A stretch of DNA of 49,369 nt, counting the filler, from Jimgerdemannia flammicorona (lineage: Eukaryota): NCBI GenBank assembly GCA_003990765.1. It is 2 parts of 2 records of this genome, joined end to end, with 100 filler letters (N's around TTAATTAATTAA, not from the genome) between each part and the next. Parts side by side here need not be neighbours in the genome. Positions count along the whole stretch, not along the records: positions 24,738 to 49,369 come from RBNJ01000949.1; 1 more part is not named here. One strand, written 5' to 3'. Positions 3,481 to 47,803 of the stretch are shown in pieces (the first letter of the stretch is position 1; each line of letters starts with the position of its first letter). A model generated the notes under the pieces. It worked only from the letters and a program-made list of their open reading frames with translations. It had not been told where the DNA came from and did not search any database. The position numbers and the translations under genes are program-made.

Positions 3481-3483
3481 ACT

Positions 3484-3500
3484 TGGTGCCCATTGGCTGG
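3484..3500 (+). promoter_or_regulatory. primer-binding site of A1
   Basis: TGGTGCCCATTGGCTGG 3 nt after the LTR end; primer tRNA not identified. Confidence 0.75.
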
Positions 3501-3599
3501 TGATTCAAGACAAATCTCTCACTTTCAAGCTGAAAAATAAACAATTCCACAATAACTACCCTGACTATAAGAGTCACTCCTGCAAGAATTCAAGATAAG

Positions 3600-6500
3600 A
3601 TGGAAATGTATTCCCCTATATTCTATGGATATACTACTGAAGAGTCAATTGTGACCTTTATTGAAGACTTTGAATAATTTGCCACTATATAAGCCCTTAG
3701 TATGGATACACAATTGGCCCTTCTACTAGTCAGCCTCAGAGGACCTGTCAGAGATAAGTTCAATGCAGCCACTATTGCTAATAATAGTGCAGCCAAACTT
3801 GCCAACATGAAGGCCTTTCTCAGAATAACATACTATTCTGAAGAGATCAAGCAAGCTCTCAAGGATCAACTCAACACTATCTGTCAGAGACTCAGTGAAG
3901 ATCTCAACTTATTCTATACCTGAATCTGCCATCAGATTGTCTTGGCTGGCTATGATGATACTCTCAGGGAACAAATAGTGGATTCAACCTTTCTCAAAGG
4001 AGTTCACTCTGAAATTGCTCTAGCAATCTAGTCTATCCCAGCTACACTGACTCTTGATCAGAAAGTGGTCTTTATACAGAGATATTAGACTATCAGACAC
4101 TCTGCTGAATACTTAATGAAGAAAATAACTAGCATTAAGATAGAGCCATCAAAGCCAATTAGTATCATACCCACCATAGTTGTAAACAGACAACTATCCC
4201 CACCTACCCTCAAGATAACCAAAGCTGACTCAGTGGAGAAACTCACCAAGCAGTTTCCTGAGATAACTGCATACCTTGGTAATGTTGTTAGAGAAGTCCA
4301 AAGCACTAACAGGAGACCAGTACAGAGATTTGCAGCTACCACAGAAGAATGTAATATCATATACTTCAGATGTGGAGAAGAAGGCCATTATGCAAAGAAT
4401 TGCATAACCAAAATAAGATACAAAGCCTAATCAAGCAATACTAGTAGAACCAGAGAACAAACCAATACAGTAGTCATTGAGGAGATTAGTGACACTGATG
4501 ATGAAGAATACTATAAGGAGTTTGAATTCTATCCTGTTACTAAAGATATCAGAATCTGGTCCAAGCTCTATGATAAGAAGAGCAACAGCAAGCCAGTTGG
4601 AAGATTAAAGAAGACTCCAGCTATCATTATCTAAAGTAAGACCCAATCCGAGGAGATTGATCAAGACATGGAGTTAGAGAAAGCTGTTTGCCAAATCATT
4701 GAAGACACTACTCCAGTCTCAGGAGAAAGCAAAAGCAAGAAGAAATAGAAGCTGTACAAGACCAAGATTCACCAGTATGATATCTACAAGGACCTCAAGG
4801 AACAGAAGGTCAATACTACTTTTGGACAGCTAGCCAAAGTTTCTGCCTTCAGATAGCAGTTGAGAGTAAGACTTGCAACTACTACCAAGAATCACAAGTA
4901 CAAGATTGTAGAAGCTCACAATGTACAAGAAAATGATTAAGAAGACTCAGGTGAAGAATCTGAAGACTAGCATAAGACATCAGCCTATATCTCATATTAG
5001 ATCGAAGATTATATCTTTAATGCCATTATTGATACTAGTGCTGGAGGATGTCTCATAAGCAAGAAGGCAATTAACCACCTAGGCTGAGATATTGAAGAGT
5101 CTACTAAGATAGTCTATATCACAGCAGATGGTACATGAGCTACCCCTCTTGGCAAAATCTGAGAAGTCTCTATTAAGATAGGAGGAGCTACCATCTCAGT
5201 AGATGTGATTATTACAAGTACCACTAACTATGATATCCTTATTGGTAATTAATGGCTTCATAAGGTCAAGGCCATCATTGACCTCAATGCCCAGAAGATA
5301 TAGATCAACTATAGAGGAAGAAAGATACAAGTCTCTATCAATGTCCACAAAGGAGTTCTACTAAATATGGAGGAAGGAGATGAAGAGGACACAGAAGTCT
5401 TCATACACTTGGTGAATAAGAACAAGAACAAGACACCCAAGCTCACAGATGAGCAGTGGTACAACAAGATCATCAATAACTATACCTCTTAAGAAAGATG
5501 CCCCCATAGTACTAGGATGTACTGCTCTGAACACCTGAATGACTGCTGGTTCTGTATCAGTAAAGTCAGGAAAATCTGCCAACAAAAGTATAAGCAAGAA
5601 GTTGCTGAAGTAAAAAAGAAAGCTGAAGAAGATGACCAGCCCCCAGAGCTTCAAGCTGACAGTGATGATGAGGAGGAATAAGAATCAGACATTACCCTCA
5701 AAGTCAAGAAGTTTCACCCTGAAGCTAAGATCCCAGAATACAAGACTGAAAGAGCCATAGGAATGGACCTTGCTAGTATCCAAGATACTACCCTTGAACC
5801 ACAGACCACCACTCTACTTGGTACCAGAATTGGAGTCAAGTTGCCAGAGAACCATGCTGGAATTATCAAGACTAGGAGCAGTCTGGCCAAAAGCAAAATC
5901 TCAGTTAAAGGAGGAGTAATTGACTCTGATTACACTGGTGAGATCTTCCTCATAGTCAGGAATCACAACCCCACCACTCTATTCAAAGTCAAGAAGTATG
6001 ACAGGATTGGCCAGATGCTGATCTATGAAATCAAGAAGCTTAAGATTACTGAAGCCATTGAACTCATCAAGACCAAGAGAGAAGAATAAGACTTTGGATC
6101 TACTGGAAGAGGAGCCTATACCACTACCAAGATTACTGAACTTGAGCACAAGAAAGACAAGGACCAGAACAAGCACACATATACCATTGGAGAAAACTTT
6201 CCCCTGGAAGAACAACTTCTCAAGATCCTGTACCAGAATGAAGAAGTACTTGCTACAGACTTTAGGGATATCTATAATTAAGAACCTAAGTACTATCATG
6301 AAGTTGACACTGGCGATACCAAGCCCTTCTACCAGAAAGCCAGATATATACTACCTGCCTACAGAGAATGGCTATGAGCAGAACTCAAGGAAATGAAAGA
6401 AGCTGGAATTATTAAGCAAGCTATTAGTTCCTGGGCTTCACCCATTTGTCCTTACCTCAAAGAAAGGAAGTAAGCCTGGAGAGTTTGTACCAAGACTCTG

Positions 6501-7629
6501 CATTGATTACAGGAAGCTCAATACAATCACCAAGAAGGATAGGCAGCTCTTACCAAATATTCAAGAAATCCTTACCACCCTTGGAAGTGAAGCCAAATAC
6601 TATACCACCTTGGATTTGTTCTCAGGCTTCCATCAGATTGGTCTCACTCAAGATGCCAGTGAGAAATCAGCCTTCATCACATCTGATGCCACCTATATCT
6701 ATCTGTGAATACCATTTGAAATGTGTAATGCCCCAGCAAGTTTTCAGTAAATGATGAACAGAGTTTTCAGTAATGAGATTGGAAAATGGCTCTTTATCTA
6801 TGTTGATGATGTGATCATCTTCAGTAATACTGTATGGGAATATGTCAACCACATACAGCTAGTTCTCAAGAAGCTCAAAGAGTATGGCCTCTACATTAAG
6901 CCTAAGAAATATAAGTTTATAGCTCAGAAAATCACCTACCTAGGACACCTCATCAATCAGACCAGAATCCACACAGACCCCATGAAGATTGAGGCTGTTG
7001 TAGCCTACCCAAGACCCAGAACAACTACAGAAGTCCATATCTTCCTTGGACTGGCCAGCTACTACAGAAGATTCATCAAAGAATATTCCAACATTATAGT
7101 ACCTATCTATAAGCTACTGAAGAAGGAAACCAAATTTGAATGGACCAAAGAATACTAAGAAATCTTCAATGAACTCAAGACCAGATTGACCCAAGCACCT
7201 ATCCTCAGAAGACCAGATTGGAACCTAGAATTCATCCTGCAGACAGATGCAAGTACTATAAAACTTGGAGCAGTCCTAGCTCAGAAGAAAAATAGACATG
7301 AATATATCATCTCCTATGCAAGCCAAGGTATCCACAAAGCAGAACAAAACTACAAGTTATGTAAGCTTGAATACTTAGCAGTAGTTTGGGCAGTAGACAA
7401 GTTCCACTACTATCTAGCTAAGAAATACTTCACTATTCAAACAGACTATTCCACTCTTGCCTAGCTATTCCACACTCTGAATCCTAAAGGAATATATGTC
7501 AGATAGATCTACAGGCTGCAAGAGTATGACTGTACTATCAAGCACTACTCAGGGAGAACTAACATCAATGCTGATGCACTCTCAAGGATACTCCAAAACA
7601 CCCCCATCAAGACTATTCAATATAAATAA
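3600..7629 (+). pseudogene. single-frame Gag-PR-dUTPase-RT-RNase H polyprotein of A1 (stops, one frameshift near 6445)
   Basis: Zn knuckle (Y)FRCGEEGHYAKNC ~4362-4403; PR AIIDTSAGG ~5020-5048; RT YVDD ~6799; RH LQTDAS ~7240. Confidence 0.93.
5690..6110 (+). pseudogene. dUTPase domain between PR and RT (A1)
   Basis: Motifs AIGMDL, RSS, GGVIDSDYTGEI, RIGQ, R...FGSTG. Confidence 0.92.
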
Positions 7630-8878
7630 GGAGTTATACTATGGATTAATCAGCTATCTTGGGCAGTGAAAGATACCCAACCACCTTGAACTCTGGACAA
7701 TCACTATCATCAACCAGACTTGGAAACAGTTTGAACTAGATAACACTATACTCAGAAAAGGAGAAAAGCTTGTAATATCTAAATACAAGAAGTATCAAGT
7801 AATGAAGGAAGTATATGAGCAAGGATACCTAGGAGGAATCAATACATATAACAAGGTAAGAAGAACCATATGGTGGTCCAAGATGGAAGAAGACCTGTGC
7901 CAATTTGTCAAAAGGTGTGATAAGTACCAAAAACAGAAATAAGATCAGTAAGACCAGACATCCAGGTCATTAATAATTGAGTCTATTCTCTTCCACTATA
8001 TCATAATAGATATTATTGGGCCACTACCAGTAACACTATCAGAAAACTGCTATATTATAGTTATTGTAGATCTCTTTACTAAATAGATAGAAGCAGGAGT
8101 ATTACAAGAAGCCAATGCCCTCTCTATAGCTGACTTCCTGCACCAAGAAATCATCTGTCACTACAAGACACTAAAGAAAATCACTACAGACCATGGCACA
8201 GAATTTGTCAATGGATTCTATAAGATAATATATCAGAAATACAAGATTCAGTACATCAAGACCACTGTATATCACCCTCAAGGAAATAGACAGATAGAGA
8301 GAATCAATAAGACTCTCAAGAACATCCTGGTGAAGATCTCAGACACATATGAGAATTGAAATAACTACCTCCCAACTGCCCTCTCTGTCTTACAAGACAT
8401 ATGATCACAGAGTACACACTTTACCCCAAGAGAACTGCTCTTTGGAGAAGAAGATTCTGATGGAATCTCAGCCACAAATCTAGACTTAACTTACTTAACT
8501 TGAAGACAGGTTGACTCAGAAATCTGGAGACTACACCAAATCAGGACAAAGGCTGAAGATTACATCATTAAGTCACAAGTACTGATAAGGAAGAATGCAG
8601 AAAAGAATCACAAGACCCTAGAACCCATCCAAATCAGAGAAAAGGTCCTATTATATTGAAATATGATAGAAGCCTCATGGTCACAAAAACTGGAGCCCAA
8701 ATGAGAAGAACTCTTCTATGTACAAGATATCAAGAGAACTATCTTCTGACTTAGAAAAATCTCAGAGACCATACTGCTTACTATAGTATATAGGAACAGA
8801 CTCAAGAAATACCATAAACCTATATAAGAGAAGCAAAACATGATGACTACCCATGAGATTCTAGTTTTCAAATTATAA
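7622..8878 (+). pseudogene. integrase of A1, in a separate reading frame
   Basis: Degenerate HHCC region (WWSKM..D...FVKRCDK), DIIGPLP, VDLFTK, TTDHGTEF, YHPQGN..IER, GPY/F-like tail. Confidence 0.9.
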
Positions 8879-9181
8879 CAGCATGTCCCATGACCAGCAA
8901 GCTATCTGTCTGGATTATTCTCTAAGGGATACAGTACCAGCAACTACTCATCTGTGAGACTTTTGAAGCTAGAGGAGTTTGAACCATCAACTGATTGATT
9001 AAGATTAGAATTAGGCCCTTGCTCTATATGAAGAGAGTGATCCTTTACCATCATGCCAAAATACAAAGAGAAGATACCAGCCTATAAACACTACTTTTCA
9101 ACCCCTTGCCAGAGGTTATGGGATCAGCAAATTTTTCAGGACTGGACCAATAAATAAGGACATCTGAGAAGATCCTTATTC

Positions 9182-9191
9182 AGGAGAAAGA
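9182..9191 (+). promoter_or_regulatory. polypurine tract of A1
   Basis: AGGAGAAAGA abutting the 3' LTR; AGGAGGAAGA in copy A2. Confidence 0.8.
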
Positions 9192-10737
9192 TGGAATAGT
9201 GATCCCAGAATGATGACATCAGCACAGGAGACAGTCTTTCCTTACAAGCCACCAGATTGGAGCATAAGAAGATCATATGATATACAAGATGAGCAATGAT
9301 AACTAACTGTAAGTCATTATGACCACAGTACAGACATCTTGAGGAATATAAAAGAAGGATTAAGGAACTACAGTAGTAGCAACCAATAAGACCCACTAAT
9401 CCCAAAATAGCTCAAAGACTTATTATAAATAAAATGCCTACTGCTCACCAAACCTCAAGATTAAGGAATCACCAAGATATCTCAGTCAAAGAAAGAATGT
9501 TCTAAGACATCAGAAGAGCTATGAGGACTTATACAAGAAGGACTCCTAGTGTCAACCTGGATACTAGTGACTCTTATCATTATATTCTCTACTATCATGA
9601 AATGGAAACAAGGATCACCATTGCTACTGAATGCTTCCAAATGTGGCAGGAGTACAAAATAGAAAATCTCCTTTACTGGGAGTTCCCACAGACCAGCCCT
9701 CAAGAGTTACAAGATACTACTTCCATAGATATATGTAAAATAAGGACAGCTAAGAAGATCTATCAGATCTTCAGGCATTTACTATGGTTGATTCCCAACT
9801 TGGAGTATATTAGAGTCTCAGACTTCAGAGACCTGTCAGCCTGCTGTATCAATGCACTAGAAGCCAGGGTGACTACAGAAGCCCAGTCTACTATCACCCT
9901 TGACAGTGATAAAGTAGAAGACTTCTGGTATCCCATCCTCCAGGATAATCCAGACCAATTTCTGTAAGAATTGATCTCAGTATTCTAAGGCCCAAGCATC
10001 CAGGTTAGACCTCCCCAAGACCCCACATTTGTTCCCTATTTTGTGGAAGAGAACCTCATAGATTGGAGAGCCCCCAATTTCCCTACTGAATGTGATAATG
10101 TCATTCCATATAACATATGTGAAATGTGCGACCTATGTGATAACAATAAGATGGATGAAACATTTACAGATCTCATCTCCTTCAAAAACATCCTGATCTC
10201 AGATGAGGATTAAGCCCATATCCTGAACATTCTGCTTTAAAGTCTCTTGGTTACACTGAATTATATTGGCACTCTTTTTTTGTGTAATAGCTATTCCTTC
10301 ACCAGTATTCTGATATAACTCAGAATTATTCCAGCACTATTTTCCTGTATCATCAAAATTATACTAGCATTCTTAACCTGTGCAACCATCAATGCCAATA
10401 CTGGAACTTAGCAGTTTTCCATGTTCTGGTATTTTATTTTAGTTATTAGAATTTATATTTAGCTTTATATCTTAGCAATCATTGAATTATATTTTGTATA
10501 AATATCCCTCTTATTTCCTCTGAAATAAAGTCAGTTCCTCTCAGTGTAATACACATAATTTCTTGCAAGCAATCTAAGAAATAACAAGACAGTTTAAAGA
10601 TAAGAAGTTTGAGAACTATAAGACCTTAGGAAGGCACTCCAATAAGAACTTGCTTATAACAAACTTGAGTTAGTCTAAGAGATACACCTTGAAGAGAATC
10701 TGATATATTTGAAGAACTCAGCAACCACTATGTGATA
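9192..10737 (+). repeat. 3' LTR of A1
   Basis: Colinear with 1909-3480; mutated termini TGGAATAGTGA...TGTGATA. Confidence 0.92.
9434..10240 (+). pseudogene. U3 ORF copy in the 3' LTR of A1
   Basis: 148-aa open segment 9521-9967 in frame with the ATG at 9434. Confidence 0.75.
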
Positions 10738-14500: not shown

Positions 14501-15497
14501 ATCAAATCAGTCTTACAGAAGCAGTAAGTGAGAAGTGAGCCTTCATCATTTCAGATAGAACTTATATCTATCTGCAAATACTATTCAAAATATGCAATAT
14601 ACCAATAAGCTTCTAGTAAATGATGAACAAAATCTTCTGCTATAATATGAGAAGATGGATGATGGTTTATATGGATGAATTTATCATCTATAATAAAATA
14701 GCTGAAGAATATCTACAGTATATCCAGTAGATGATAGAGAAGCTAAGGAAGTATGACCTATATATTAAGTCCAAAAAGTGTAAGTTCATAGAAATTGAGA
14801 TCTCCTACCTTGGCTATATTATCAATCAAGATGGAATACATACAGATCCTCTCAAGATTCAAGTAGTAGTAATATATCCAAGGCTCACTACTATTACTGA
14901 AGCATAAGTCTTCATGAGACTCATCTTATACTATTATAGATTTATCAAAGAATTTCTCAATATTATAGAACTAATCTATGAACTCAATAAGAAGAATATC
15001 AAGTTCCAATAGACAGACAGACAATAAAAGGCATTTGATGAACTCAAGATCAGGTTGACTCAAGTATCCATTTTCAGAAGATCTGATTAAACTCAAGAAT
15101 TCAGCTTACAGATAAATATAAGTATATAAGAACTAGGAGCAGTCCTAGCTCAGAAGAAAGATAAAATAGAGTATATCATTATATATCTTAGTTGAAGAAT
15201 CTGAGGAGCTAAAAAGAATATGAATCCTATAAGTAGAAATGTTTTGCAGTTATCTGAGTTATAGAAAAGTTCTACTACTATCTTACTAGAAGATACTTCA
15301 CTATCCAGACAGACTATTCAGCCCTTATCTGACTACTGACCATCAGGTAACCCAAAGAAATCTATATCAGATAAATTATAAAGTTACAGGCATATGATGT
15401 AACTATCATATACTAACCTGGAAGAATTAATACTAATGTAGATACCCTATTACAGATATCTTAAAAGACCTCTAACCAACAAATCAATAATGAATAA
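11569..15497 (+). pseudogene. Gag-PR-dUTPase-RT-RH of element C
   Basis: MRLPIFH.. gag start like A; SSSWASPVALAPKK and YRKLN RT motifs; many stops and frameshifts. Confidence 0.85.
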
Positions 15498-16396: not shown

Positions 16397-16457
<61 letters not shown>

Positions 16458-27900: not shown

Positions 27901-28447
27901 AACATTCTCTACCTGCATCTACCAGAGCACTAAGTCTCTCCACTTCCTCCCATACTGCCAGTTCTCCACTCTGCCCCACAGCACCTTGTCCTCCATCAGT
28001 TCTATTCCTCAATATGTCTCTGACCATATTGAAGTCCCCACCCAGCACATCTACCCCAACCTCCATAAGAATCCCACTCTCCTGTAGGTCCGTCACCCAG
28101 TTCACCCACTTGCCCTGTACCACAGAGCAGTAACAGGAGTCCACCATGACTAGCTCCCAATCTGCATGTATCCACTCTCCCCAGACCAATCTATCCCCCC
28201 AGCTCTGCACATCCTGTATCTCCCCTCTGCCCTTCTGCACCAGAATTTCAACCTTGCCCTTCCAAACTACCTCACCTCCCCACTCCTTCATCCATTCCAG
28301 TCTATCCAAGTCATCCTCACACCTGACATCCTGCAAGAGGAAGAGATCAGCCTCCAATCCCTTCAGCCAAGTAAAAATGTTCTTACATCAATAAGCACCC
28401 CATAACCCATTTATGTTCAAAGAAAAAATGTTGGTTGTACTATTCAT
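24958..28447 (-). pseudogene. LINE ORF2: APE endonuclease - RT - C-terminal Cys/His motif
   Basis: SLNINGL, DLFLLQD, VLGGDFN, TRIDWIL, SDH; APGEDGLP, QGDSLSP, FADN, YLG; CFDC...EHWLGEC; stops and frameshifts. Confidence 0.92.
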
Positions 28448-28478
28448 AAGAGAGATTATATAGTTCCAGATGCACCCT

Positions 28479-30512: not shown

Positions 30513-30610
30513 GATACTAGTAGCTTGTCTCCAGAAACTATATCAAAAGTGTTGCCAAAAGATTGTGTAACCTGAATGTTACCAGAGAAAGATGGCATGC
30601 CTCAATATAT

Positions 30611-31339
30611 TTATTATACATCTCGCGTATGTTGATGTCACGTGGGATGATGTCATCGCTGATAACATCATCACGTTTGGCTGTGGTGGGAAAATCAGAA
30701 ACAAGATCTGGAGCTCTCCAGTCTATGAGGTTCCCTTCCACAAAATAGGGAACAAATATGGGGTCTTGGAGAGGTCTAACCTGGATGCTTGGGCCTTGGA
30801 ATACTGAGATCAATCCTTGCAGGAATTGGTCTGGGTTGTTCTGAAGGATAGAATGCCAGAAGTCTTCTACTTCTTCACTGTTGAGGGTGATAGTGAACTG
30901 GGCTTCTGTAGCCACCCTGGCTTCAAGTGCATTGATACAGTGGGATGATAGGTCTCTGAAGTCTGAGACTCTAACATACTTCAAGTTGGAGATTGACCAT
31001 GATGCATGCCTGAAGATCTGATGCATCTTCTTAGCTGTCCTTGTTTCATATATATCCATGGGAGTGGCATCTTGTAGCTCTTGGGTGCTGGCTTTTGGGA
31101 ACTCCTGGCAGAGGAGGTTTCCTATTTCATACTCCTGCCACATTTGGAGGCATTCAGTAGCAATAGTGATCCTTGTTTCCATTTCATGGTGGTAGAGAAT
31201 GAAGTAATAAGGGTCTGCAGTAACTAGGAGTCCTTCTTGAGTAAGTCCTCATGGCTCTTCTGATGTCTTGGAACATCCTTTCCTCAACCGAGATACCTTG
31301 GTGATTCCTTGACCTTGAGGTTTGGCGTGCAGCAGGCAT
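30611..31339 (-). pseudogene. U3 ORF in the A2 3' LTR
   Basis: ~190 uninterrupted codons from 31182; small deletion near 31222. Confidence 0.78.
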
Positions 31340-31894: not shown

Positions 31895-33135
31895 TTATGA
31901 TTCACGGACTAGAACCTCATGGGCGGTTATCACATTTTGCTTTTTTTGTATAGATTCATGATACTTCTTAAGTCTGTTCCTATATACTATAGTAGGCAGT
32001 ATGGTCTCTGAGATTTTTCTAAGCCAGAAGGTAGTTCTCTTGATATCTTGCATGTAGAAGGGTCCTTCCCATTTGGGCTCCAGTTTTTGTAACTATGAGG
32101 CTTCTACTATATTTCGATATAGTAGAATCTTTTCTCCGATTCGGATGGGTTCTAGGGCCTTGTGATTCTTTTCTGCATTCTTCCTTGTCAGTGCTTGTGA
32201 CTTGGTGATATAATCTTCAGCCTTCTTCCTGATTTGGTGTAGTCTCTGGATTTCTGCATCAACCCATCTCTAAGTTAGGTCTAGATTTGTGGCTGAGATT
32301 CCATCAGAATCTTCTTCTCCGAAGAGCAGCTCTCTTGGGGTAAAATGTGTGCTCTGTGACTGTATGTCTCGTAGAACAGAGAGGGCAGTTGGGAGATAGT
32401 TATCTCAATTCTCATATGTCTCTGAGATCTTTGCTAGGATGTTCTTGAGGTCTTGTTGGTTCTCTCTGTCTGTCCATTTCCTTGAGGGTGGTATGTGGTG
32501 GTCTTGATATGCTGGATCTTATATTTCTGATATATTATCTCATGGAATCCATTGACAAATTCTGTGCCACAGTCTGTTGTGATTTGCTTTGGTGTCTTGT
32601 AGTGGCAGATGATTTCTCAGTATAGGAAGTCAGCTATAGCACTGGCTTCTTGTAGTGCTCCTGCCTCTATCCATTTGGTGAAGAGGTCTACAATAACTAT
32701 AATATAGTAATTTCCTAATAATATTACTAGTAGTGATCTAATGATATCTATTGTAATGTGGTGGAAGAGGATAGGCTCAATTCTTGATGACCCAGGTGCC
32801 TGGTCTTGCTGATCTTGTTTCTGTTTTTGGCACTTGTCACACCCTTTGACAAATTGGTGCAGGTCTTCTTCTATCTTGGGCCACTACATAGTTCTTCTTG
32901 CCTTGTCATATATGTTGGTTCCTCCTAAGTATCCTTGCTCATGTACTTCCTTCATTACTTGATACTTCTTATGTTCAGATATTACTAGCTTTCCTCCTTT
33001 TCTGAGTGTAGTGTTGTCTAATTCAAACTGTTTCCAAGTCTAGTTGATGATGGTAATTGTCCAGAGTTTGAGGTGGTTGGACATCTTCTGCTGCCCAAGA
33101 TAGCTGATTAATCCATAGTATAGCTCCTTATTCAT
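31895..33135 (-). pseudogene. integrase of A2 with its own ATG
   Basis: MNKELYYGLISYL, HEQG.LG, CDKCQ, VDLFTKW, YHPQGNGQTER, PKWEGPFY. Confidence 0.9.
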
Positions 33136-33925
33136 GTTGAGTGGTCTTGATGGAGGTGTTTTGGGGTATCCTTGAGAGTGTATTGGCATTGGTGTTGGTC
33201 TTTCCTGAGTGGTACTTGATAGTATAGTTATACTCTTGCAGCCTGTAGATCCATCTAGCATATATTCCTTTGGGGTTCAGAGTGTAGAATAGCCAGGCAA
33301 GAGCGGAATGGTCCATTTGAATGGTGAAGTATTTTCCAGCTAGGTAGTAGTGGAACTTGTCTACTGCCCAAACTACCACTAAGTATTCAAGCTTACATGA
33401 CTCGTAGTTCTGTTCCACTCCATGGGTACCTCGGCTTGCATAGGAGATGACATATTCATGTCCATCTTTCTTCTGAGCTAGGACTGCTCCAAGCTCTATA
33501 GTACTTGCATCTGTCTGCAGGATGAATTCTAGGTTCCAGTCTGGTCTTCTGAGGATAGGTGCTTGGGTCAACCTGATCTTGAGTTTATTGAAGGTTTCTT
33601 GGCACTCCTTGGTCTATTCGAATTTGGTCTCCTTCTTCAGTAGCTCATAGATAGGTGCTGTAATGTTGGAGTATCCTTTGATGAATCTTCTGTAGTAGCT
33701 GGCCAGTCCAAGGAAGGTGTGGACTTCTGTGGTTGTTCTGGGTCTTGGGTAGGCTGCAACAGCCTCAATCTCTATAGAGTCTGTGTGGATTCTGGTCTGG
33801 TTGATGAGGTATCCTAGGTAGGCAATTTCTTGAGCTACAAACTTACATTTCTTAGGCTTGATGTAGAGGCCATGCTCCTTGAGCCTCTTGAGGGCTAGCT
33901 GTATGTGATTGACATGTTCCTGTGC
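33128..33925 (-). pseudogene. RT C-terminus and RNase H of A2
   Basis: KPKKCKF, YLG, FLGLASYYRRFI, LQTDAS, ARWIYRLQEY. Confidence 0.92.
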
Positions 33926-35990
33926 TGTAAGAGGGTTGCTTTTTAGGGTAACCATTACATAGTTCTGGAAGGGTTTTCTGGAAGTTCTGAATATTCTGAA
34001 AGACTGTTTTCTTATGGTCAAGATCAATTTCATATGAAGTACGTCCTCTACACTTATTGATTTCAAGATCAGGTTGACGTCTCAACCAAAGTCCTTTTTC
34101 AGACTAGTTCTGGATATTCGGATTTTCCGTATTTCAGGAAGTTCAAGAAACTAAGACCAGCTTAGTTGAATTGGTATATTGCTACAGACAATACCCAATT
34201 AAGAAATTTCGTGATGGGGTTAGGAATGGGACCTAACAGGGAGTGGATTTACTTAAGAGTAGTTTGTGGATTATTAAATAGATTTATTTGCTATTTATGA
34301 TATTGCTATACTAGGAGTAGTTATATGGAGGGATATTGTGGAGAAGTGTTCAGGAATGTTCTTATGTATTCGAGTCTAAGATTCTGAGGTCTGGGGGAGG
34401 GAGTATTTATATTAGTGAGAGGCTATCTGGACTATGCTGAATATGGATATACATAGCACTAAGTACCTTGCTGAGTCAGAATGCAGTCATATAGTACAAG
34501 TGTGATCTGACATATCAAGAGATCATCTGGCTGCTGAGTCAGTTCACAGTCACATCATATAAGGCTAATCTAACTATACTATGACTGCTAGGCTATTTAT
34601 GAGTTTAGGCACTATCTGGGTAGTCCTCAATGACATCACTATCAATTGCATCATCTCTGATGAAGTAGTTATCTAGGAAGAGTGGTTTGCGGATTACTTC
34701 TCCTTGTTCGCTGAGGTAATAATATATTGGAACTTTGTCTCTATCCCACAAGATGGCATCATCAGTCTCATATGCTGGATAAGGTATTGGTGGGCAAAGG
34801 AGGGGTGCATCATCTTCACTTTTGTCAGATTTGCTGTCTGCATACTTTCTGTAGGTTATAGCACTATGAGTCATGGGGTTGTAGTAAGCTGGTGGCTGTG
34901 GTTCATGTTGCTCATACTTAGGTGGTGGAGTGGTTGGTTCAATCTCGAGAGTTGTCTGGAGGTACAGGTTGTGTTCTCCAGTCTCTTCATTGTAGTTGAA
35001 GTAATCAGGAGTAAACGTGGGTTGGTATTCATGCCAGTGGTCATTGTCCCAATAAGTCTCGTATGCTGTTATGAATTGTTGTAAGTTCATCGGTAAGGTT
35101 GGTGGTGTGATCAGAGTTGGCAGAGATCCTTGGCTAGAGGTCATGTTGGCATCAGAGAGATCATTGTCTTCTGCTTTGTCTTCATTGAAGTGGATTATAT
35201 CATAGATGTCCTTCATGGTGTATCCAACTTGGGACATTTGCAGGATATGATCATTGGGGTGTGGGAAGGTTCTATCTGTGGTTTCGACATACTCGAGGTA
35301 CTTGTGGTTGAGTTCTTGTATCATGTTGTCGATTTGGCCATAGGATAGAGTAGCAACCATTTCAGCTGTGGTAACTCGGAGGCAGGGAATAACAGTACTA
35401 TACTTGTAGAAGAGTTCTCGATGTTTGTGGGCAATGAGCTTCTGGTGTTGAGACATCTGGGTAATGTCTGTATCATGGTGGTGTTTGATCATATCTTCCA
35501 GGAGGTGGCTGATCTGGTAGTAGCTTGAGATTTATCCAATTCAGTAGGCCTCGCTAAGTATGTTCAGAGCATTCCATCGGGCTTCTACAAAGTAGAGGGG
35601 TGCTAGACTATGGATATTCATGAGGGGTAGAGGGGGTGTGGCTCCATTGACAATGGTATTCCAAATGTCAGCGCAGACATAGGTATAGATCTTGGTGGTC
35701 ATATTTGTGTGTTTGGAAGTTGTAGTTGTTGTTTGTTTTAGTTCTCTGATTCGACGTATCTTAGTGCTCGGTATATATGCATTTGATTCTGATTGGTAAG
35801 ATTCTGTTTATGTAAATCTTGTGTTCTGTGACTTCGTATTGACTCAGCTTTATGCACTGTGACTTCGGTTTGACTCAGCTTTGTGATCAAGCAAGTAATT
35901 TCCAGATTTGTTCAGAGGTTATGTGTAATTTCAGTGGCTTGTTCAGAGGGTGATGTGTAATTTCAGTGGCTTAGAGGTTGTATGCTTACA
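33926..35990 (-). repeat. 3' LTR of B1 (2065 bp)
   Basis: TGTAAG...CTTACA; TATAAATA near 34405 on the minus strand. Confidence 0.95.
34605..35702 (-). pseudogene. U3-encoded ORF of family B (365 codons, unknown function)
   Basis: 295-aa open segment plus 70 upstream codons with two stops (TGA, TAA) that are sense in B2. Confidence 0.82.
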
Positions 35991-36004
35991 ACTCTCCCCT
36001 TCTT
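35991..36004 (-). promoter_or_regulatory. polypurine tract of B1
   Basis: AAGAAGGGGAGAGT before the 3' LTR; same in B2 (23590-23603). Confidence 0.85.
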
Positions 36005-36416
36005 AGCTTTCGACATCCTCGTTGGGGCCTTCTAATTTTGTTCTAGTGTTGTTACACCATTTGGGAGGTCAAAAGTCCAGTAAAGTCTATTTTTTCAGAA
36101 AGTGGCATGCTCATAGTACAGTTGCCTAATGCATTGGATTCATATATTAAAGAGTTGTGTGTTCAATGCTGTATGCTGGAAGTGATTCTGATGTCATTCA
36201 CTGCTGGAGAATTTCCTCTAAGGAATCTTCTTAAATGTCTATGCCTTGTTTCCCACCAGTGGTATGGGGAGAATGGGCTTGCTTTCAGTTTTGTTATTTT
36301 TCCAGAGGGTCAGTATTCTTGTCTTATTTTGCTGAGTTCTTGGTTTGGTTTGCAATAATTATAATATTTAGAGGAATAATATATAGTATGTATGGATAGG
36401 TGCAGAGTATTTGGTT

Positions 36417-39400
36417 CTAGTAGTTCAAGAAATCATATTCCTGAACTAGGTCAGTAGTATTCTGGAGATTGGTCTTGAGTTCCCAGGTTGCATCATGGAT
36501 CAGGTAACCTTTCCATTTGACAAGGTACTCAGGGTGGCTCTTGTTGCCATGTTTATTGAGGATTTGTTCAACTTCGTACTCTTCTTGATCATTAATAATG
36601 ACAGGTGCAGGTGGTTTGGTTGTCTGATTTGGAAATAGCTCATCATCATTCTTATTATATCGCTTGAGACGTTGAATATTAAAGACTGGGTGAATCTTAA
36701 TGGTGTCCAGTAGCACCAATTTGTAGGAGGTTGGAGAGACTTGTACAATGACTTCAAATGGTCCAATGAACTTGCTGTTCAGCTTTGTAGATGGTCTGTG
36801 CTTGAGGTTGTCAACTCGGTAACCTCTGATGTCCAGTAGAACTTTTTCTCCAATATCAAAGGTTTCTTCTCAGTGGTGTTAGTTAACATACTGTGACTGT
36901 TGTTCTTGAGCTTATGATAAATTCTCGATGGCAATCTGGCTTAGATTGTATATTTGAAGTAAGAATTCTTCAACAGCTTTGACTGTAGAGGGTTCTTCAG
37001 TTATTCGGATAAGTATCAAAGGGGTGTTTGGGTTTTGTTCAGTGTTGGCAAAGAATGGGGTCATTCCGAGATAGGCTTGCTTGCTATTGTTATAGACAAA
37101 CTCAACTGTGGTGAGGTGTTCATGCCAGTCCTCTTGTCTGTAGGAAACATAGTTCCTTAGCATTTGTTCCAGAGTTCGGTTCATTCTTTCAGTTTGGCCA
37201 TTAGTTTCTGGGTGAAAGGCTGTGGATAGTGCAAGTTTTGTTCCAAGGTGTGTATGGAGGGCTTTCCAAAAATTGCTGGTGAATTTTGAGTCTTGGTCAC
37301 TAATGATGATCTTGGGAAGACCATGGTAGTGGAAGATGTTGTCAAACAAGAGTGTGGCTATGTCTGGTGCTGTTGCAGTAGTGGTAGTAGGCACAAAGTG
37401 AGCTTGTTTGCTGAGATAGTCCACAAAGATAACAATTGCATCTTTTCTGTTCTTAGTTTGGGGTAGTTATACAATGAAGTCTATAGAGATTTGTTCCCAA
37501 TTCGCAGATAGTACTGGAATAGAGTGAAGTAAGCCAGGTTTTGCTAGTGTTGAGGACTTGTTTCATTGGCAGGCATTACAGAAAGTGATATAGGTTTTGA
37601 GCTAATCTGCCATGCAGGGCCAGTAGAAGTTTCAGGAGATAACTTTGTAACATTTATCAAATCCTAAATGTTCAGCTATAGGGGCATCATGACATTCAAA
37701 TAGGATAGTCCTTCGGAGGTCTCAGTTGTTTGGGACATACAGTCTGTCTTTGTAGTAGATAGCATTGTCCTTCAGTTGGTATTGATGATACTGTGTATGC
37801 TTGTCAGCATTATTACTATTCAGGATTTCTTGCAGTGCTTGAGCTTCCTTATCATCGGCACATGCTGTGATAATTTGTTCCATGATGGAGTTTGTAACCA
37901 AGGTGAGAGTTTGGATAACCTCTTCAATTGGTGGTCTGGAGATTGCATTGGCAATAATATTTTTCTTGTCAGGGTGGTACTGAATTTCATAGTCAAAGTT
38001 GGTGAGGACTTTCATCCATCTAGCTTGCCTTCAAGAAAGGGTAGCCTGTGTCTTGATATTGACTAATAACTTGTGGTCAGTCAATATAGTAAAGTGTGCT
38101 CCTTCTAGATATGGTTGCCATTTGATCAGAGTGTCTACGATGGCTAGCATTTCCTTCTCGTGGGTTGCATAGTTAATTTCAGCATCATTGAACTTGTGGG
38201 AGTGATAGGCCACAGGGTGTCCTTCTTGCATGAGTACTGCTCCAAGAGCTAGGTTAGAGGCATCAGTAGTAACTTTATATGGCAGTGCAGGGTTTGCCAC
38301 TTGAAGTACTGGAGTGGTTATCAGAGCATCCTTTAGTGCTTGAAAGGCAGTATCTTGCTCAGGTCCCCAAGTTATAAGATTGTTGAAGTCTTTCTCTTAT
38401 TTTATGGTCCAGGGTTGTTCTTATTTCTTGCTATGCTTGGTCATTTGGGTGAGGGCAGTAATGATTTTAGCAAAGTTGGCAACAAATCACCTGTAATAGT
38501 TTGCTAATTCCAGGAATGACTAGAGGTCTTTCAGCTTCTTGGGTCTGGGCCAATCTTTGATTGTGGAGATTTTGCTGGGGTCCACTTTGATTCCATTTGG
38601 AGTGACAATGTGTCCAAGGAATTGAATTTCTTTCAGAAGAAATTCGCACTTACTGAGTTTTGCAAAGAGTTGGTTTTCTCAGAGTTTCAGTAGTACTAGT
38701 TCAAGGTGTTCAAGATATTCCTCCAGGGTTTTGCTGAAGACTAGGATGTCATCAATGTAGACAATAACGAATTTGTCTAGATATGGATGCAGAATGGTAT
38801 TCATCAGTATCTGGAAGGTTGCTGGAGCATTAGTTAAGCTAAAGGGCATAACCAGGAACTCAAAGTGTCCATAGCGAGTTCAGAAAGCTGTCTTGTAGAT
38901 GTCTTCTTCTTTTATAGCAATTTACCAATAGCCATTTCACAGATCAAAAGAGCTCATGAATTGTGGGTTGATAAGTCTATCAAATATTTCATCAATCCTT
39001 GGTAGTGGGCAACAGTTCTTGATAGTCTGTTCATTGAGATCATGGTAGTCAATGCACATTTGCAGGTCTCCTCCTTTTTTGACAACAAAGAGGACTGGTG
39101 TGCCATAGGGTGATGCACTGGGTCTGATGAATCCTTATTCTAGGAGTTTGTCAATTTCTTTCTTGAGTGCATTGATTTCTCTCGGAGACATATGGTAGAT
39201 TGACTTGAAGGCTGGTTTGGCATCTGGGATAGTCTTGATGGCATAGTCTACTGCTCATTTAAGAGGTAGGCCTTTTGGAAGTTTCTTTGGGAATATGTCT
39301 CGAAATTTCTGGAGTAGTGGTCTGATATGGCTGTCAACTTTGGAAAAATCTTCTTCAGAGTTCTCAGGTTCTCCTTTGGATGGGCAGATGGAGATGGTGA

Positions 39401-42215
39401 AGAGAGGGCATTTCTTGGCCAATTTCTTAAGTTGTAGCTTGTTGATGTGGGTGATCTTTGGTCCAGGGTCACTAGAATTAAGTGGGTCCTTTTCGCCTTA
39501 CAGTTTGAAGTTGTGGTGTCCTTTCTTGATGGTCAGAGAATGGTTTACCCAATCGATCATAGGGTTCTCTTGTTTTAACCATGGAGTCCCAAGGATGATT
39601 TCATTGTCAGGAAGTGGTACGATTTGGAGGGTAACATGTACTCAGTAGTCACCAATTCAGAAGGGTAGATTGCAGACTTCTTTGCTAATAACATGTGAGG
39701 TTCCATCAGCTATAGCAACTGCTTGAGTTTGCTGTACTAAAGAGGTGAAGACCTTGAGTCTGTTGACTGTCTCTTCATTGATAAAGTTGCCTGAGGCACC
39801 ACTGTCTATCATAATCTTGACAGGTGCTCGATTGACAAAAGCCTTAAGTGTGAGCAGTTTGTCTGATCCAATGGTGGTTATTTCGGTTGTAGGAGCTTTC
39901 CTTCTATTGGTTCTTCTTTGTGCCAGTTCATTGACACAAGAGAAGCAATCATCAATCATTTGGGAAGAGTACATTCCAATGCTATGAGGGCATTGGCCAC
40001 TTGGTATATATCTATCTTCAATCTTCTTATAGAATTGTTCTTCTTTGCTTATGGTAGGTTGGGCTGGGGCCTTGTTTGATGAGCCAAATCCTTTGAATCC
40101 TCGGATGGTGGGCAGTAGTTCAGGGACTTCCTTGACTGTCAGGGTTGACTCGATTTTTTCGAATAGGATCTGGGCAATGCAGAAACCAATAGGGATCTTG
40201 AAGGGTGTCCAACTGTGGTTTTAGATGAGGACAATAATTTCACCTGTGTAATCCTTGTCAATAACTCCTCCTTCTACTGAGAATTCTTTCAATGCTAGGC
40301 TGCTATGACAGCATATTCTTCCAACATGTCCTTCAGAGATTTAGATACTGATTCCTATGTAGACTTATTTGACTTCTCAGTTGGAAACTATAGCTTCTTC
40401 GGCTGCATACAGGTCATATCCAGCTGCTTTCTGACTTCCTTTGGCTGGGGTCTTAGCAGTTTGTCTTAACTTAACAAAGTCCAGTGTTCTGGTGGTCAGG
40501 TTGTTGAGGTGGTGCAGAGTGGTAACAGTTGCTTGTGTTGCTGTTCAGGGTTTTCGGTTAGGGCAGGCACTGGCCATATGTCCTGTCTTTCGACAATAGA
40601 AGCATGCTCCGCTTCTTCAAAGTTCATTCCTTTCACCTTTGGTAAGTTTCTTGAAGGTACTTGGCTGGGTGGGTTCATAATTTCTGGGTATCCAAGAGGT
40701 GGATGTGGAGGGAGCTTGAGATGCTTCATACTTGGGTTCTTCTTTCTTGGTCCAAGTCTTTTTCTTGTTGTTGAATTGTCTTCGGGGCAGAATTGGTCCA
40801 GCTGTAGGATTCACTTGACTATAGTCTTGATTCTTACCAGACACTATTGTTGGTGATCACAACCAACTGGGCGGCCTTGTTCTCAGATTTTTCTAATAAG
40901 CCATTCAGACAGGGCATCGAATAAATGGTCTGCTCTTATACCATTTCATGCTTCATCATTGGCAATATATCCTAGGCTAACAGTGTTCAGGAGTGACTCG
41001 AGTTTTGTACAGAAGGTTTCAAATTCTTCTTTGTCATATATATCGAATTTGAGGTTGCGGAGTTTTACTCGGGATTCAGCGATCATGGTTTCGCTGCAGT
41101 ATTGGGCAATCATGAGTTGTTTGAGTCCAGGGGCTGCAGGATGGACTCCATATCCTGGGGCATTGTTTGCTGCATTCTGAGAAACTACTGCAGGTTGGAT
41201 ATCCCATGTGAGGGGTTTTTCAGGAAGGGTTCGCCACCATTCTTTGGCAGGTCCTTGGAAGAATGTAACAACTCAGTGGATATAGGCTGTAGTGGTAGCA
41301 AAGAGTTGTTCCAGAGTGTGGTCTTGATTGTTTATCAGAACACAGTCAGCAACTCGCTCATTAGTCCATTGATTGACTTCAAAGTTAGTGTCAACTATAC
41401 TAATAAAGCTTTGGACTTCTTGTGCAGTACCATTGAAGATAGGTAGGCTCAGATTTTTGATAGGTTGAGTCTGTTTAGCTAAGGCAGTAATGGTTGCTGC
41501 CATTATGGCTACCTAGGCTGTGAGGTCTAGAATCTGTTGGTTTACCATGTTGTTTACTGGAGGCAGTTGGACTGCTGGTAGTAGTGTTACTGGTACTACT
41601 TGAGGTACTAGTACAGAGTGTGATGGGGTTCTTTGAGTCTGTATAAGTTGCTGGAGTAGTAGTTGTGGGTCTGGAGTAAGGGCTTAATAGATAACTATTT
41701 GTTGCTGAGTAGGTATATTCTGTCCTGATGGAAGTACTTCTCCTTCGGTGGTATATCTGGGATCGAATTCAGTGAGATACTCCTCCTCCTCTTTAGTTTG
41801 GTCCCTGTGTAATTGGGTTTGCTCAGCATCAAAGTAGATGGAATCAGTTATATATCTGATTTCGGATGGACCTAATTCAAAGTCAAGTTCAGGTTCAGTA
41901 TTGGTTTTAGATTCAGGTAGGGCTGTAGCAGGGCCTTCTTCAGATTCAGGGTCAGGTAGTTGATGAAGGGTTTCTCTTGCTTCTTCTTAAGGATATGGCA
42001 GGCCTTGCTGTTCTGGAATCAGTAGTATAATGTGGTCTTGGTCCTGGTATAGTGAAAGTCGGTAGAGTTGAGCCACTTGGCTACAGAGGCTTGAGCTTTG
42101 TGAGGAACTAAGGCTAGAAAGACTGCTGCTGGTTGTCCTAGGTCGCTCGGATTTGTGGAGCTGACAAAACTCTTGTTGAGAAGAGTAAAGAAGGCTTCAA
42201 TAAGACTTTCTTCAT
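36417..42215 (-). pseudogene. Gag-Pol of B1 (start codon uncertain)
   Basis: Gag LPIFNG/AKEWW; CFYCRKTGHMASAC; PR IMIDSGASGNFI; RT VYIDD ~38750; RH TTDAS; IN SDQDSKF, FHPETNGQTER; chromodomain ~36417-36590. Confidence 0.93.
40075..40485 (-). pseudogene. dUTPase domain between Zn knuckle and protease (B1)
   Basis: Manual translation: AAGYDL, (H)SSLA, GGVIDKDYTGEI, IAQ, RGFKGFGSS; not in the ORF track because of stops. Confidence 0.92.
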
Positions 42216-42494
42216 CTTGACTTGCTGGGTGTAGTGCAAGGAGTTCGGTGAATAGGGTTTCGCCTATTTGCTAGTTTAATCAGAGTACTTCTTTCTTTGA
42301 ATGAAGTTTATCCCACTTGTTGCAGGTGTGGAGGTCAAATTGTCCTTGTACGTCAGGTTCAATTCTCTCCAGATTGTCAGATGGTTCAGGATAAATTCCA
42401 GTTCAGAGGTTGGGCTTTGTACCAACTTGTAGGAATTCTCAGAAGAGTTTGTAGTGGGGTGAGGAAGCGTCTTGAAGCAGAATTGGATTGTAAA

Positions 42495-42506
42495 CCACTA
42501 CTACCA
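42495..42506 (-). promoter_or_regulatory. primer-binding site of B1
   Basis: TGGTAGTAGTGG 3 nt after the LTR; compatible with a C>T-decayed tRNA-iMet type TGGTAGC (inference). Confidence 0.7.
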
Positions 42507-42509
42507 AGT

Positions 42510-44570
42510 TGTAAGAGGGTTGCTTTTTAGGGTAACTGTTATGTAGTTCTGGAAGGGTTTTCTGGAAGTTCTGGATATTCTGGAAGACCATTTTCTTATG
42601 GTCAAGATCAATTTCGTATGGAGTATATCCTCTACACTTATTGATTTCAAGATCAGGTTGACGTCTCAACTAAAGTCCTTTTTCGGACTAGTTCTGGATG
42701 TTCAGATTTTCCATATTTCAGAAAGTTCAAGAAACTAAGACCAGCTTAGTTGAATTGGCATATCGCTGCAGACAATACCTAATTAAGAAATTTCATAACA
42801 GGGTTAGGAGTGGGACCTAATAGGAAGTGGATTTACTTAAGAGTGGTTTGTGGGTTATTAAATAGGTTTATTTGCTATTCATGATATTGCTATACTAGGA
42901 GTAGTTGTGTAGAGGGATATTGTGGAGAAGTATTCAGGAATGTTCTTGTATATTCGAGTCTAAGATTCTGAGGTCTGGGGGAGGGGGTATTTATACTAGT
43001 GAGGGGCTATCTGGACTATGCTGAATATGGATGTAGCACCAAGTACCTTGCTGAGTCAGAATGCAGTCATATAGTATAAGTGTGATCTGACATGTCAAGA
43101 GATCGTCTGGCTGCTAAGTCAGTTCACAGTCATGTCGTACAAGACTAATCTAACTATACTATGACTGCTAGGCTATTTATGGGTTTAGGCACTGTCTGGG
43201 TTGTCCTCGATGACATCACCATCAATTGCATCATCTCTGATGAAGTAGTCATCTAGGAAGAGTGGTTTGTGGATTACTTCTCCTTATTCACTGAGGTAAT
43301 AATATATTGGAACTTCGTCTCTATCCCACAAGATGGCATCATCAGTCTCGTATACTGGATAAGGTGTTGATGGATGAAGGAGGGGTACATCATTTTCACT
43401 TTCATCAGATTTGCTGTCTGCATACCTTCTGTAGGTTACAGCACTATGAGTCACAGGGTTGTAGTAAGCTGGTGGCTGTGGTTCATGTTGCTCATATTCA
43501 GGTAGTAGAGTGGTTGGTTCAATCTCGAGGGTTGTCTGGAGGTATAGGTTGTATTCTCCAGTCTCTTCATTATAGTTGAAGTAATCAGGAGTAAATATGA
43601 GTTGGTATTCATGCCAGTGGTCATTGTCCCAATAAGTCTCGTATGCTGTTATGAATTGTTGTAAGTTCATCAGTAAGATTGGTGGTGTGATCAGGGTTGG
43701 CAGAGATCCTTGGCTAGAGGTCATGTTGGCATCAGAGAAATCATTGTCTTCTGCTTTATCTTCATCGAAGTGGATTATATCATAGATGTCCTTCATGGCA
43801 TATCCAACTTGGGGCATTTGCAGGATATGATCATTGAGGTGTGGGAAGGTTCTATCTGTGGTTTCGACATACTCGAGGTACTTGTGGTCGAGTTCTTGTA
43901 TCATGTCATCAATTTGGCCATAGGACAGGGTAGCAACCATTTCGGCTGTGGTAACTCGGAGGCGGGGAATAATGGTGCTATACTCATAGAAGAGTTCTCG
44001 ATGTTTGCAGGTGATGAGCTTCTGGTGTTGAGACATCTAGGTAATGTCTGTATCATGGTGGTATTTGATCATGTCTTCCAGGAGACAGTTGATCTGGTAG
44101 TAGCTTGAGATTTGTCCAATTCAGTGGGCCTTGCTAAGTATGTTCAGAGCATTCCATCAGGCTTCCATGAAGTAGAGGGGTGCTAGGCTATGGATATTCA
44201 TGAGGGGCAGAGGGGGTGTGGCTCTATTGACAATGGTATTTCAAATATCAGTGCGGATATAGGTATAGATCTCGGTGGTCATGTTTGTATAATTAGAAGT
44301 TGTGGTTGTTATTTGTTTTGGTTCTCTGATTCAATGCATCTTGGTACTCAGTATATATGCATTTGATCCTGATTGGTAAGATTCTGTTTATGTAAATTTT
44401 GTGTTCTGTAACTTCGTATTGACTCAGCTTTGTGTGCTGTGACTTCGGTTTGACTCAGCTTCATGATCAAGCAGGTGATTTCCAGATTTGTTCAGAGGTC
44501 GCATGTGATTTCAGTGGCTTGTTCAGAGGGTGACATGTAATTTCAGTGGCTTGGAGGTTGTACACTTACA
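42510..44570 (-). repeat. 5' LTR of B1 (2061 bp)
   Basis: Colinear with 33926-35990. Confidence 0.95.
43185..44282 (-). pseudogene. U3 ORF copy in the B1 5' LTR
   Basis: Same 1098-nt length as the 3' LTR copy; 250-aa open segment. Confidence 0.82.
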
Positions 44571-47500: not shown

Positions 47501-47803
47501 ATCTTCACTAAGTCCCTGGCAGATAGTATTGAGTTGATCCTTGAGAGCTTGCTTGATCTCTTCAGTATAATATGTTATTCTGAGGAAGACCTTCATGTTG
47601 GCAAGTTTGACTGCATCAGTACCAGCAATGGTGGCTACATTGAACTTGTCTCTGGCAGGTCCTCTGAGGCTGACTGGTAGAAGGGCCAATTAAGCATCTA
47701 CACTAAGAGCTTGTATGGCAGTGAATTGTTCAAAGTCTTCAATAAAGGTCAGAATTGACTCTTCAGTAGTATATCCATAGAATGTGGGGAGATGTATTTC
47801 CAT
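44571..47803 (-). pseudogene. Gag-PR-dUTPase-RT(N) of A2, single frame
   Basis: ORF-track pieces 47689, 47083, 46543, 46003, 45643 and 45013 share one frame; CFRCGEEGHYAKSC; IIDTSAGG; dUTPase ~45290-45720 with RGEQGFGSTG; LCIDYRKLN. Confidence 0.93.

What the first reader, a model, noticed from the sequence alone, without database searches (positions are those of the whole stretch)
33120..33145. Integrase is a separate ORF overlapping the RNase H stop (ATGAATAA), conserved across diverged families
Seen: in A2 RH ends CAA CAT GAA TAA while IN starts ATG AAT AAG (MNKELYY) in the +1 frame. The same junction is in C (15490-15497, AAT GAA TAA / ATG AAT AAG) and in A1 (7622-7629, ATG decayed to ATA). 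Gag through RH is one frame with no gag/pol shift. Known: Ty3/Gypsy IN is normally cut from Pol by PR. Inference: conservation in the diverged C argues for a programmed mechanism (termination-reinitiation, +1 frameshift or a subgenomic RNA) rather than decay, and raises the question of how IN is packaged.
Basis: partly seen in the sequence, partly recalled or inferred. Interest (0 to 1): 0.72.

Follow-up and report, generated by a model that had tools for sequence, protein, structure and literature searches.

The report
Retrotransposon with stand-alone integrase gene
A fungal-type jumping gene, and a whole lineage of its relatives, encodes its integrase as a separate gene that starts right at the stop codon of the main polyprotein, most likely so that ribosomes stop and restart there instead of making the single long protein that such elements normally use.

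Summary
Confirmed. In this Ty3/gypsy family the Gag-PR-dUTPase-RT-RNase H frame stops at TAA, and integrase (IN) starts 8 nt earlier in the +1 frame (ATGAATAA). 85 of 88 scored own-genome loci keep this register, the least decayed included. All 17 close metagenomic relatives whose contig holds RNase H are split too, with offsets from -11 to +2 nt (ATGA, TAATG, ATGN5TGA) in both alternative frames. A common frameshift is therefore rejected, and so is decay. Best reading (0.6): termination-reinitiation. The stop-start distance is tight, whereas a third ORF in the same elements is not tied to the IN stop. TAATG-type relatives carry a hairpin with 5 of 13 pairs compensated just upstream of the junction. 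Main rival (0.28): a separate IN mRNA. A sister group with 52-371-nt gaps has a TATA box about 43 nt before the IN ATG, but the core clade has none. The window's own family shows no hairpin, TURBS or TATA, and there are no RNA data. Eight paper searches found no description. This scan noted the same split five times before on other pieces of this genome; those notes' short listings mention no hairpin, ORF3 contrast or TATA group.

The parts
33128..33135 (-). A2 start/stop overlap ATGAATAA: IN ATG (33135-33133) and RH stop TAA (33130-33128)
33128..33928 (-). A2: 3' end of RT and RNase H, ending at the stop
   Evidence: Pfam RT_RNaseH E 2e-31
31922..33135 (-). A2 integrase ORF (decayed; HHCC, catalytic core, GPY/F-type end)
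   Evidence: tblastn 75-78% to the natural 410-aa copy P0001
44573..47596 (-). A3: 5' half of the same element (Gag with CCHC, PR, dUTPase, start of RT), in one frame; separated from A2 by insertion B
33926..44570 (-). Chromodomain-bearing Ty3/gypsy element B inserted into RT of A2/A3, 5-bp target duplication TGTGC; its RH and IN are in one frame
   Evidence: sequence directly
7622..7629 (+). A1 junction, ATG decayed to ATA
1910..10737 (+). A1 full element: LTRs of about 1.57 kb (about 1910-3479 and 9192-10737, 86.8% identical), PBS-like TGG after the 5' LTR, gag-RH about 3600-7629, IN 7622 to about 8860
15490..15497 (+). Family C junction ATGAATAA; C is 64-69% identical to A in DNA
30538..31248 (-). 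LTR-borne accessory ORF of family A (also about 2200-2950 and 9500-10240 on +), weakly homologous to ORF3 of relatives
   Evidence: hmmsearch E 1e-3 to 9e-7 within the window; no Pfam hit

Best explanation
IN is a separate cistron on the full-length RNA of an LTR retrotransposon clade. Ribosomes translate one Gag-PR-dUTPase-RT-RH polyprotein, terminate, and a minority restart at the AUG lying within about 11 nt (termination-reinitiation). Shown: the two ORFs, their own AUG, and the tight but frame-variable spacing across the clade. Inferred: the restart itself; its purpose, which would be to keep IN scarce when Gag and RT are made 1:1 from one frame; and packaging of free IN by binding RNA, RT or Gag in cis. 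In TAATG-type relatives a covarying hairpin just 5' of the stop is the likely cis signal. In the window's family no signal was found apart from an unstructured C/A-rich tail.
For: 17 of 17 core-clade metagenome loci with RH in the contig are split, with ATG-to-stop-end offsets of -11 (2), -10 (2), -8 (3), -4 ATGA (5), -1 TAATG/TGATG (4) and +2 (1). The RH tail varies from 11 to 29 codons after LSR, yet always ends at the AUG. Internal control: in 21 of 29 scored loci an ORF3 starts at a fixed spot in the IN C-terminus, but its offset from the IN stop runs from -4 to -407 nt, and only 1 of 21 lies within 11 nt. The hairpin in L063, L066 and L071 has 39 of 39 cells paired and 5 of 13 pairs changed on both sides, 0 of 500 shuffles reach this, and slid controls give at most 1; fold z is -2.8 to -4.3 in the four -1 loci. 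No TATA lies within 300 nt upstream of the IN ATG in 16 of 16 core junctions. These geometries match proven stop-restart sites: UAAUG in CHV1 and SART1, AUGA in victoriviruses, codons within 20 nt in TURBS viruses (PMC2699510, PMC6356909, PMC10275272).
Against: There are no RNA or protein data. In the window's family there is no hairpin (z +1.0), no TGGGA, no excess pairing to host 18S helix 26, no 18S site clearly above background (6 of 13 against 3-5 in control windows) and no excess synonymous conservation before the junction. The hairpin appears in only 4 of 16 junctions, and its covariation rests on 3 sequences, two of them close relatives, with the structure read from those same sequences. 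IN's own first codons generate stops: the unused frame also stops within the window in 8 of 16, so the 2e-9 null overstates the case. ORF3 is not tied to the IN stop, so if expressed it needs another route, and a sister group gives IN its own TATA box.
Confidence: 0.6

Rival explanations
1. IN is translated from its own subgenomic mRNA, made from a TATA-less promoter inside RT-RH or by splicing. The tight overlap is then only compaction.
For: 7 of 7 wide-gap loci (5 distinct elements; gaps 52-371 nt) have TATAAA[TC]A 37-45 nt before the IN ATG, the same motif as in the window's LTRs. ORF3 of core elements is not stop-coupled. The IN AUG often has a purine at -3 (10 of 16).
Against: There is no TATA within 300 nt and no shared YAG acceptor in core junctions, and no synonymous constraint. 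This reading does not explain why RH tails of variable length always end at the AUG while IN tails ignore the ORF3 AUG.
Confidence: 0.28
2. A programmed +1 frameshift near the RH end (for example at CCC CGA) makes an RH-IN fusion, which PR then cleaves.
For: In family A the IN frame is open for 47 codons upstream of the ATG and contains CCC CGA. All own-genome families seen are +1.
Against: 12 of 17 core relatives are +2, and six outer ones are in frame behind a stop. The IN frame is closed 1-13 codons before the ATG in L087, L076, L065, L073, L068/69 and L077. No slippery motif is shared. An invariant ATG would be unnecessary.
Confidence: 0.05
3. Internal ribosome entry or shunting to the IN AUG, independent of upstream translation.
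For: A C/A-rich unstructured stretch precedes the AUG in several junctions.
Against: It does not predict the stop-start proximity, and no shared structure was found.
Confidence: 0.05
4. Decay: a frameshift in a non-autonomous master copy that was amplified.
For: All window copies are dead, with many stops.
Against: Relatives at 40-48% IN identity with open ORFs are all split, in six different geometries. The best fused IN relatives found are only 36% identical or less.
Confidence: 0.01

Closest known systems
Ty3/gypsy (Metaviridae) LTR retrotransposons, including dUTPase-bearing fungal elements such as PosPlaTy3-5 (PMC2864245, passages)
   Same: LTRs, PBS-like site, domain order Gag-PR-(dUTPase)-RT-RH-IN, single Gag-Pol frame, HHCC and DDE integrase.
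   Different: IN is not part of Pol. It is a 400-445-aa ORF with its own AUG, usually followed by an unnamed ORF3.
Stop-restart in fungal RNA viruses: CHV1 (UAAUG, 2.5-4.4% efficiency; PMC2699510, passages) and victoriviruses such as HvV190S (AUGA with an upstream pseudoknot; PMC6356909 and PMC10275272, passages)
   Same: Same overlap types after a long ORF in fungal-type cells; an upstream RNA structure in one subclade; the downstream product is a replication enzyme needed in small amounts.
   Different: A retroelement; the structure found is a simple bulged hairpin and is absent from the window's family; untested experimentally.
SART1 non-LTR retrotransposon, UAAUG coupling (cited in PMC10275272, passages)
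   Same: A retrotransposon using an overlapping stop-start.
   Different: SART1 couples ORF1 to ORF2 and needs a downstream structure. Here the junction lies inside Pol of an LTR element.
Calicivirus and influenza B TURBS reinitiation (PMC10275272, section 13 and passages)
   Same: Stop and start within 20 nt, usually out of frame.
   Different: No UGGGA motif and no helix-26 pairing here.
Foamy virus Pol and DIRS recombinase as separately expressed enzymes (foamy virus recalled; DIRS 'separate ORFs' in bioRxiv 10.64898/2026.05.21.726589, passages)
   Same: An enzyme that must be packaged without being fused to Gag.
   Different: Foamy Pol comes from a spliced RNA and keeps RT-IN fused. DIRS uses a tyrosine recombinase.

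Membership tests
Ty3/gypsy LTR retrotransposon | LTRs flanking gag-pol, with PBS and PPT | tested here: met
   A1 LTR pair 86.8% identical over 1565 nt; TGG-starting PBS-like site and a purine tract by eye
Ty3/gypsy LTR retrotransposon | Domain order PR-RT-RH-IN with RVT_1-type RT | tested here: met
Ty3/gypsy LTR retrotransposon | IN encoded within the Pol polyprotein (usual layout, PMC3248453) | tested here: not met
   this is the variant feature
Termination-reinitiation after a long ORF | Stop and start within about 20 nt, any frame | tested here: met
   17 of 17 core loci within -11 to +2 nt
Termination-reinitiation after a long ORF | Downstream expression depends on upstream termination at that site | not testable with these tools
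   needs a reporter assay
TURBS-type reinitiation | UGGGA motif or 18S helix-26 complementarity upstream | tested here: not met
   0 of 16 core junctions have TGGGA within 120 nt; pairing to host helix 26 no better than controls
Victorivirus-type structure-assisted restart | RNA structure immediately 5' of the stop-start | tested here: inconclusive
   covarying hairpin in the -1 subclade; absent in the window's family; pseudoknots not modelled
Programmed +1 frameshift (Ty1/Ty3 type) | Constant +1 register with a shared slippery site | tested here: not met
Subgenomic IN mRNA | Promoter or splice acceptor upstream of the IN AUG | tested here: inconclusive
   TATA in 7 of 7 wide-gap outer loci, in 0 of 16 core junctions within 300 nt; TATA-less promoters cannot be seen

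The most novel reading that the evidence does not exclude
A widespread, probably Mucoromycota-centred Ty3/gypsy lineage abandoned the Pol-IN polyprotein. It makes Gag through RNase H from one frame and doses integrase by stop-restart translation, helped in one branch by a covarying hairpin, while a sister branch went on to give IN its own TATA promoter. That would be a natural series (fused, coupled, independently transcribed) and would require a Gag-independent way of packaging IN.
Probability: 0.45. Interest if true: 0.83.

Novelty: new variant of a known kind. Interest (0 to 1): 0.68.

Why it matters
LTR retroelements are taken to deliver integrase into particles as part of Gag-Pol. A successful clade with free-standing IN (over a thousand candidate matches in this genome) shows that this rule can be broken. 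It supplies many natural stop-start junctions in fungal-type cells, where only a few viral cases have been tested, and gives a specific hairpin to mutate. In practice such elements would be mis-scored as frameshifted or dead by TE annotation pipelines.

Tried and rejected
No RNA holder was listed for window 3400-10700, so no reads were laid; this is no evidence either way. Long 'fused' top hits of the profile search looked like possible spliced RH-IN joins. They are ordinary continuous Pol proteins, and the three I looked up are pseudoscorpion gene models; rejected. The 623-aa open frame in L189 comes from a 1-nt loss inside RH that destroys its C-terminal motif; rejected as a fused form. The shift=0 call for L184 was a script artefact, corrected. 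TURBS and helix-26 pairing, a recurring 18S site or shared hexamers and synonymous-site constraint gave nothing. A degenerate pattern for more hairpin-type junctions found 0 in viral and 0 in prokaryote contigs. A single-protein scan of viral contigs found nothing; alignment scans of viral and prokaryote collections gave only distant, mostly fused elements. The Atlas search of the LTR ORF gave only weak EST1-like hits below 0.9 with low recognition; not used. L095, L133, L153 and L169 were left out as apparent decay frameshifts or stops in other lineages. In one search the label F only meant a tail over 120 aa, so some F rows lack an integrase domain; that tree was used only for the core clade. 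No structure or complex prediction was run.

Full report
Observation. The window is a nest of decayed retroelements from a 231-Mb eukaryotic assembly. On the minus strand at 33135-33128 the RNase H frame (Pfam RT_RNaseH) ends ...QHE* and integrase begins MNKELYY in the +1 frame, overlapping by ATGAATAA. A1 (7622, ATA) and C (15490) match. A2 is the 3' half of an element whose 5' half (A3, 44573-47596) was pushed away by chromovirus B, inserted with a TGTGC target duplication. A1 is complete, with 1.57-kb LTRs 86.8% identical.

Copies in the same genome. Three searches gave 89 loci, of 1508, 1372 and 5699 first-look candidates, so this is a small top-scoring sample. Of 88 scorable loci, 85 keep the 55-nt anchor-to-ATG distance, 83 keep ATG and all 88 have a stop at ATG+5. 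The exceptions are private indels. The loci chosen by IN similarity alone include two with a fully open 415-aa IN (L196, L197), and they are split.

Relatives. The natural 410-aa IN of L028 (P0001) found 112 proteins, 57 of them covering at least 96% of the query at 39-92% identity. In the 53 that I aligned, Met1 is invariant and falls in the same column. Gene callers start at Met anyway, so the DNA loci are the real test. A search among longer proteins found fused integrases only at 36% identity or less (118 hits). The Atlas puts the nearest clusters most often in Mucoromycota, on 10-11 members with known phylum. Of the 30 best metagenome loci (IN identity 40-76%), 17 hold RH and all 17 are split; two pairs are near-duplicates. 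Offsets of the ATG from the end of the stop are -11, -10, -8, -4, -1 and +2. Sixteen dUTPase-bearing Gag-to-RH polyproteins group with them (28 rows, FastTree support 100), lack integrase Pfam domains, and the 15 printed end 13-31 residues after the LSR motif. On a 52-row subset IQ-TREE gives the core clade SH-aLRT 99. It joins all split elements, four short-tailed proteins and two fused ones at 90, which is suggestive only; FastTree scattered the outer split elements. One origin is therefore neither shown nor excluded. More distant split elements have -4, -11, in-frame +9/+12, +28 and +52 to +371 gaps.

Mechanism. Use of all three frames, and in-frame stops 1-13 codons before the ATG, exclude a shared frameshift or readthrough. 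For coupling: RH tails of 11-29 codons always end at the AUG (16 of 16 distinct junctions), against 8 of 16 for the unused frame. The formal null there (2e-9 over 11 lineages) is too generous because IN's first codons themselves create stops. The best control is internal. Core elements carry an ORF3 whose ATG sits at a fixed place in the IN C-terminus, found in 21 of 29 scored loci, and its distance from the IN stop ranges from -4 to -407 nt with 1 of 21 inside 11 nt. The four -1 junctions fold into a stem ending a few bases before the stop. In the three alignable ones every cell pairs and 5 of 13 pairs change on both sides, with amino-acid changes following the pairing; three sequences is thin. 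The window's family has no such stem (z +1.0), no TURBS-like motif, no 18S pairing above background and no synonymous constraint. Against coupling as the whole story: all 7 wide-gap loci have TATAAA[TC]A 37-45 nt before the IN ATG, like the LTR TATA in the window, and L127 has another before its pol ORF. Core junctions have none within 300 nt. I put restart at 0.6 and a separate mRNA at 0.28 for the core clade. The stoichiometry argument and the packaging route are inference. With Gag and RT in one frame, a restart of a few percent (2.5-4.4% in CHV1, PMC2699510) would keep IN scarce, and free IN would need to bind RNA, RT or Gag. That single-ORF Tf1 lowers IN by degradation, and that foamy Pol is packaged through RNA, are recalled and come from no call.

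Literature. Searches listed no paper describing a Ty3/gypsy element with IN as its own ORF; I judged most from listings and abstract starts only. Read as passages: PMC3248453, PMC2864245, PMC6431247, PMC2699510, PMC6356909, bioRxiv 10.64898/2026.05.21.726589, and PMC10275272 (passages and section 13). I did not open supplements; Additional file 1 of PMC2864245 (an old .doc listing fungal element structures) could bear on novelty. Repbase, GyDB and subscription journals were not searchable. The scan's own notes report this split five times on other pieces of this genome, and the accessory ORF many times. A word search for hairpin, TATA and ORF3 together found none; I saw only the short listings. 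These notes are repeats, not independent support.

Verdict. The feature is real, clade-wide and selected. It is a new genome layout for Ty3/gypsy that works like viral stop-restart but is not a TURBS member, and the mechanism is untested. Interest 0.68.

Noticed in passing
window 30538-31248 (-), about 2200-2950 and 9500-10240 (+), 18574-19038 (+), about 48450-49000 (-): Family A LTRs hold a roughly 240-aa ORF with no Pfam hit that matches a profile of post-IN ORF3s from relatives (E 9e-7 to 1e-3 in the window). Family C loci keep an L061-type ORF3 right after IN.
   Followed up: partly
window 34605-35531, 43284-44036, 22860-23474 (-): LTR ORF of chromovirus B; only a borderline match to the same ORF3 profile (E 0.015-0.07). 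B has dUTPase upstream of PR.
   Followed up: partly
L097:672-764, L101:2651-2911, L120:1077-1355, L127:3858-4229: Wide-gap group: TATA before IN; in L101/103, L120/123 and L127 a roughly 75-bp motif is repeated twice in the gap; further TATA boxes lie before other ORFs. This looks like a multi-promoter retroelement.
   Followed up: partly
L099:960-1080, L107:3760-3880: Fused elements that sit next to split ones in the trees keep M-D or L-D followed by the same N-terminal helix pattern at the RH/IN boundary: possible re-fusion, or the ancestral state.
   Followed up: partly
L094, L098, L104, L106, L110, L114, L116, L134: IN-like ORFs with no RNase H match upstream in the contig (0.2-1.5 kb available); possibly RT-less or Ginger-like elements.
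   Followed up: no
proteins P0447, P0448, P0449, P0455, P0457, P0468, P0470, P0485, P0504, P0508, P0512: A second group of Gag/Pol polyproteins that end 1-5 residues after the RH LSR motif with no integrase; DNA context unavailable.
   Followed up: no
L116:1880-1900; L140:920-940: In these outer elements the ORF after IN starts on the IN stop (TAATG, or directly adjacent), a second possible stop-start.
   Followed up: no
L066:1-8256: The contig is a circularly permuted whole element with a 7775-bp period, probably an assembly collapse of LTRs.
   Followed up: no
window 21301-22329 and 25999-30248 (-): Decayed LINE-type elements (endonuclease and RT, plus a 589-aa ORF1-like frame without Pfam hit); one interrupts the A2 3' LTR near 30713.
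   Followed up: no
window 484-1165: AT-rich tandem repeat with a 61-bp period.
   Followed up: no
window about 16399-16453: Long poly-A run inside the integrase region of C.
   Followed up: no
all LTR copies in the window: Decay looks dominated by C-to-T and G-to-A changes (CGA to TGA/CAA, TGG to TAG, ATG to ATA); seen by eye, not counted.
   Followed up: no
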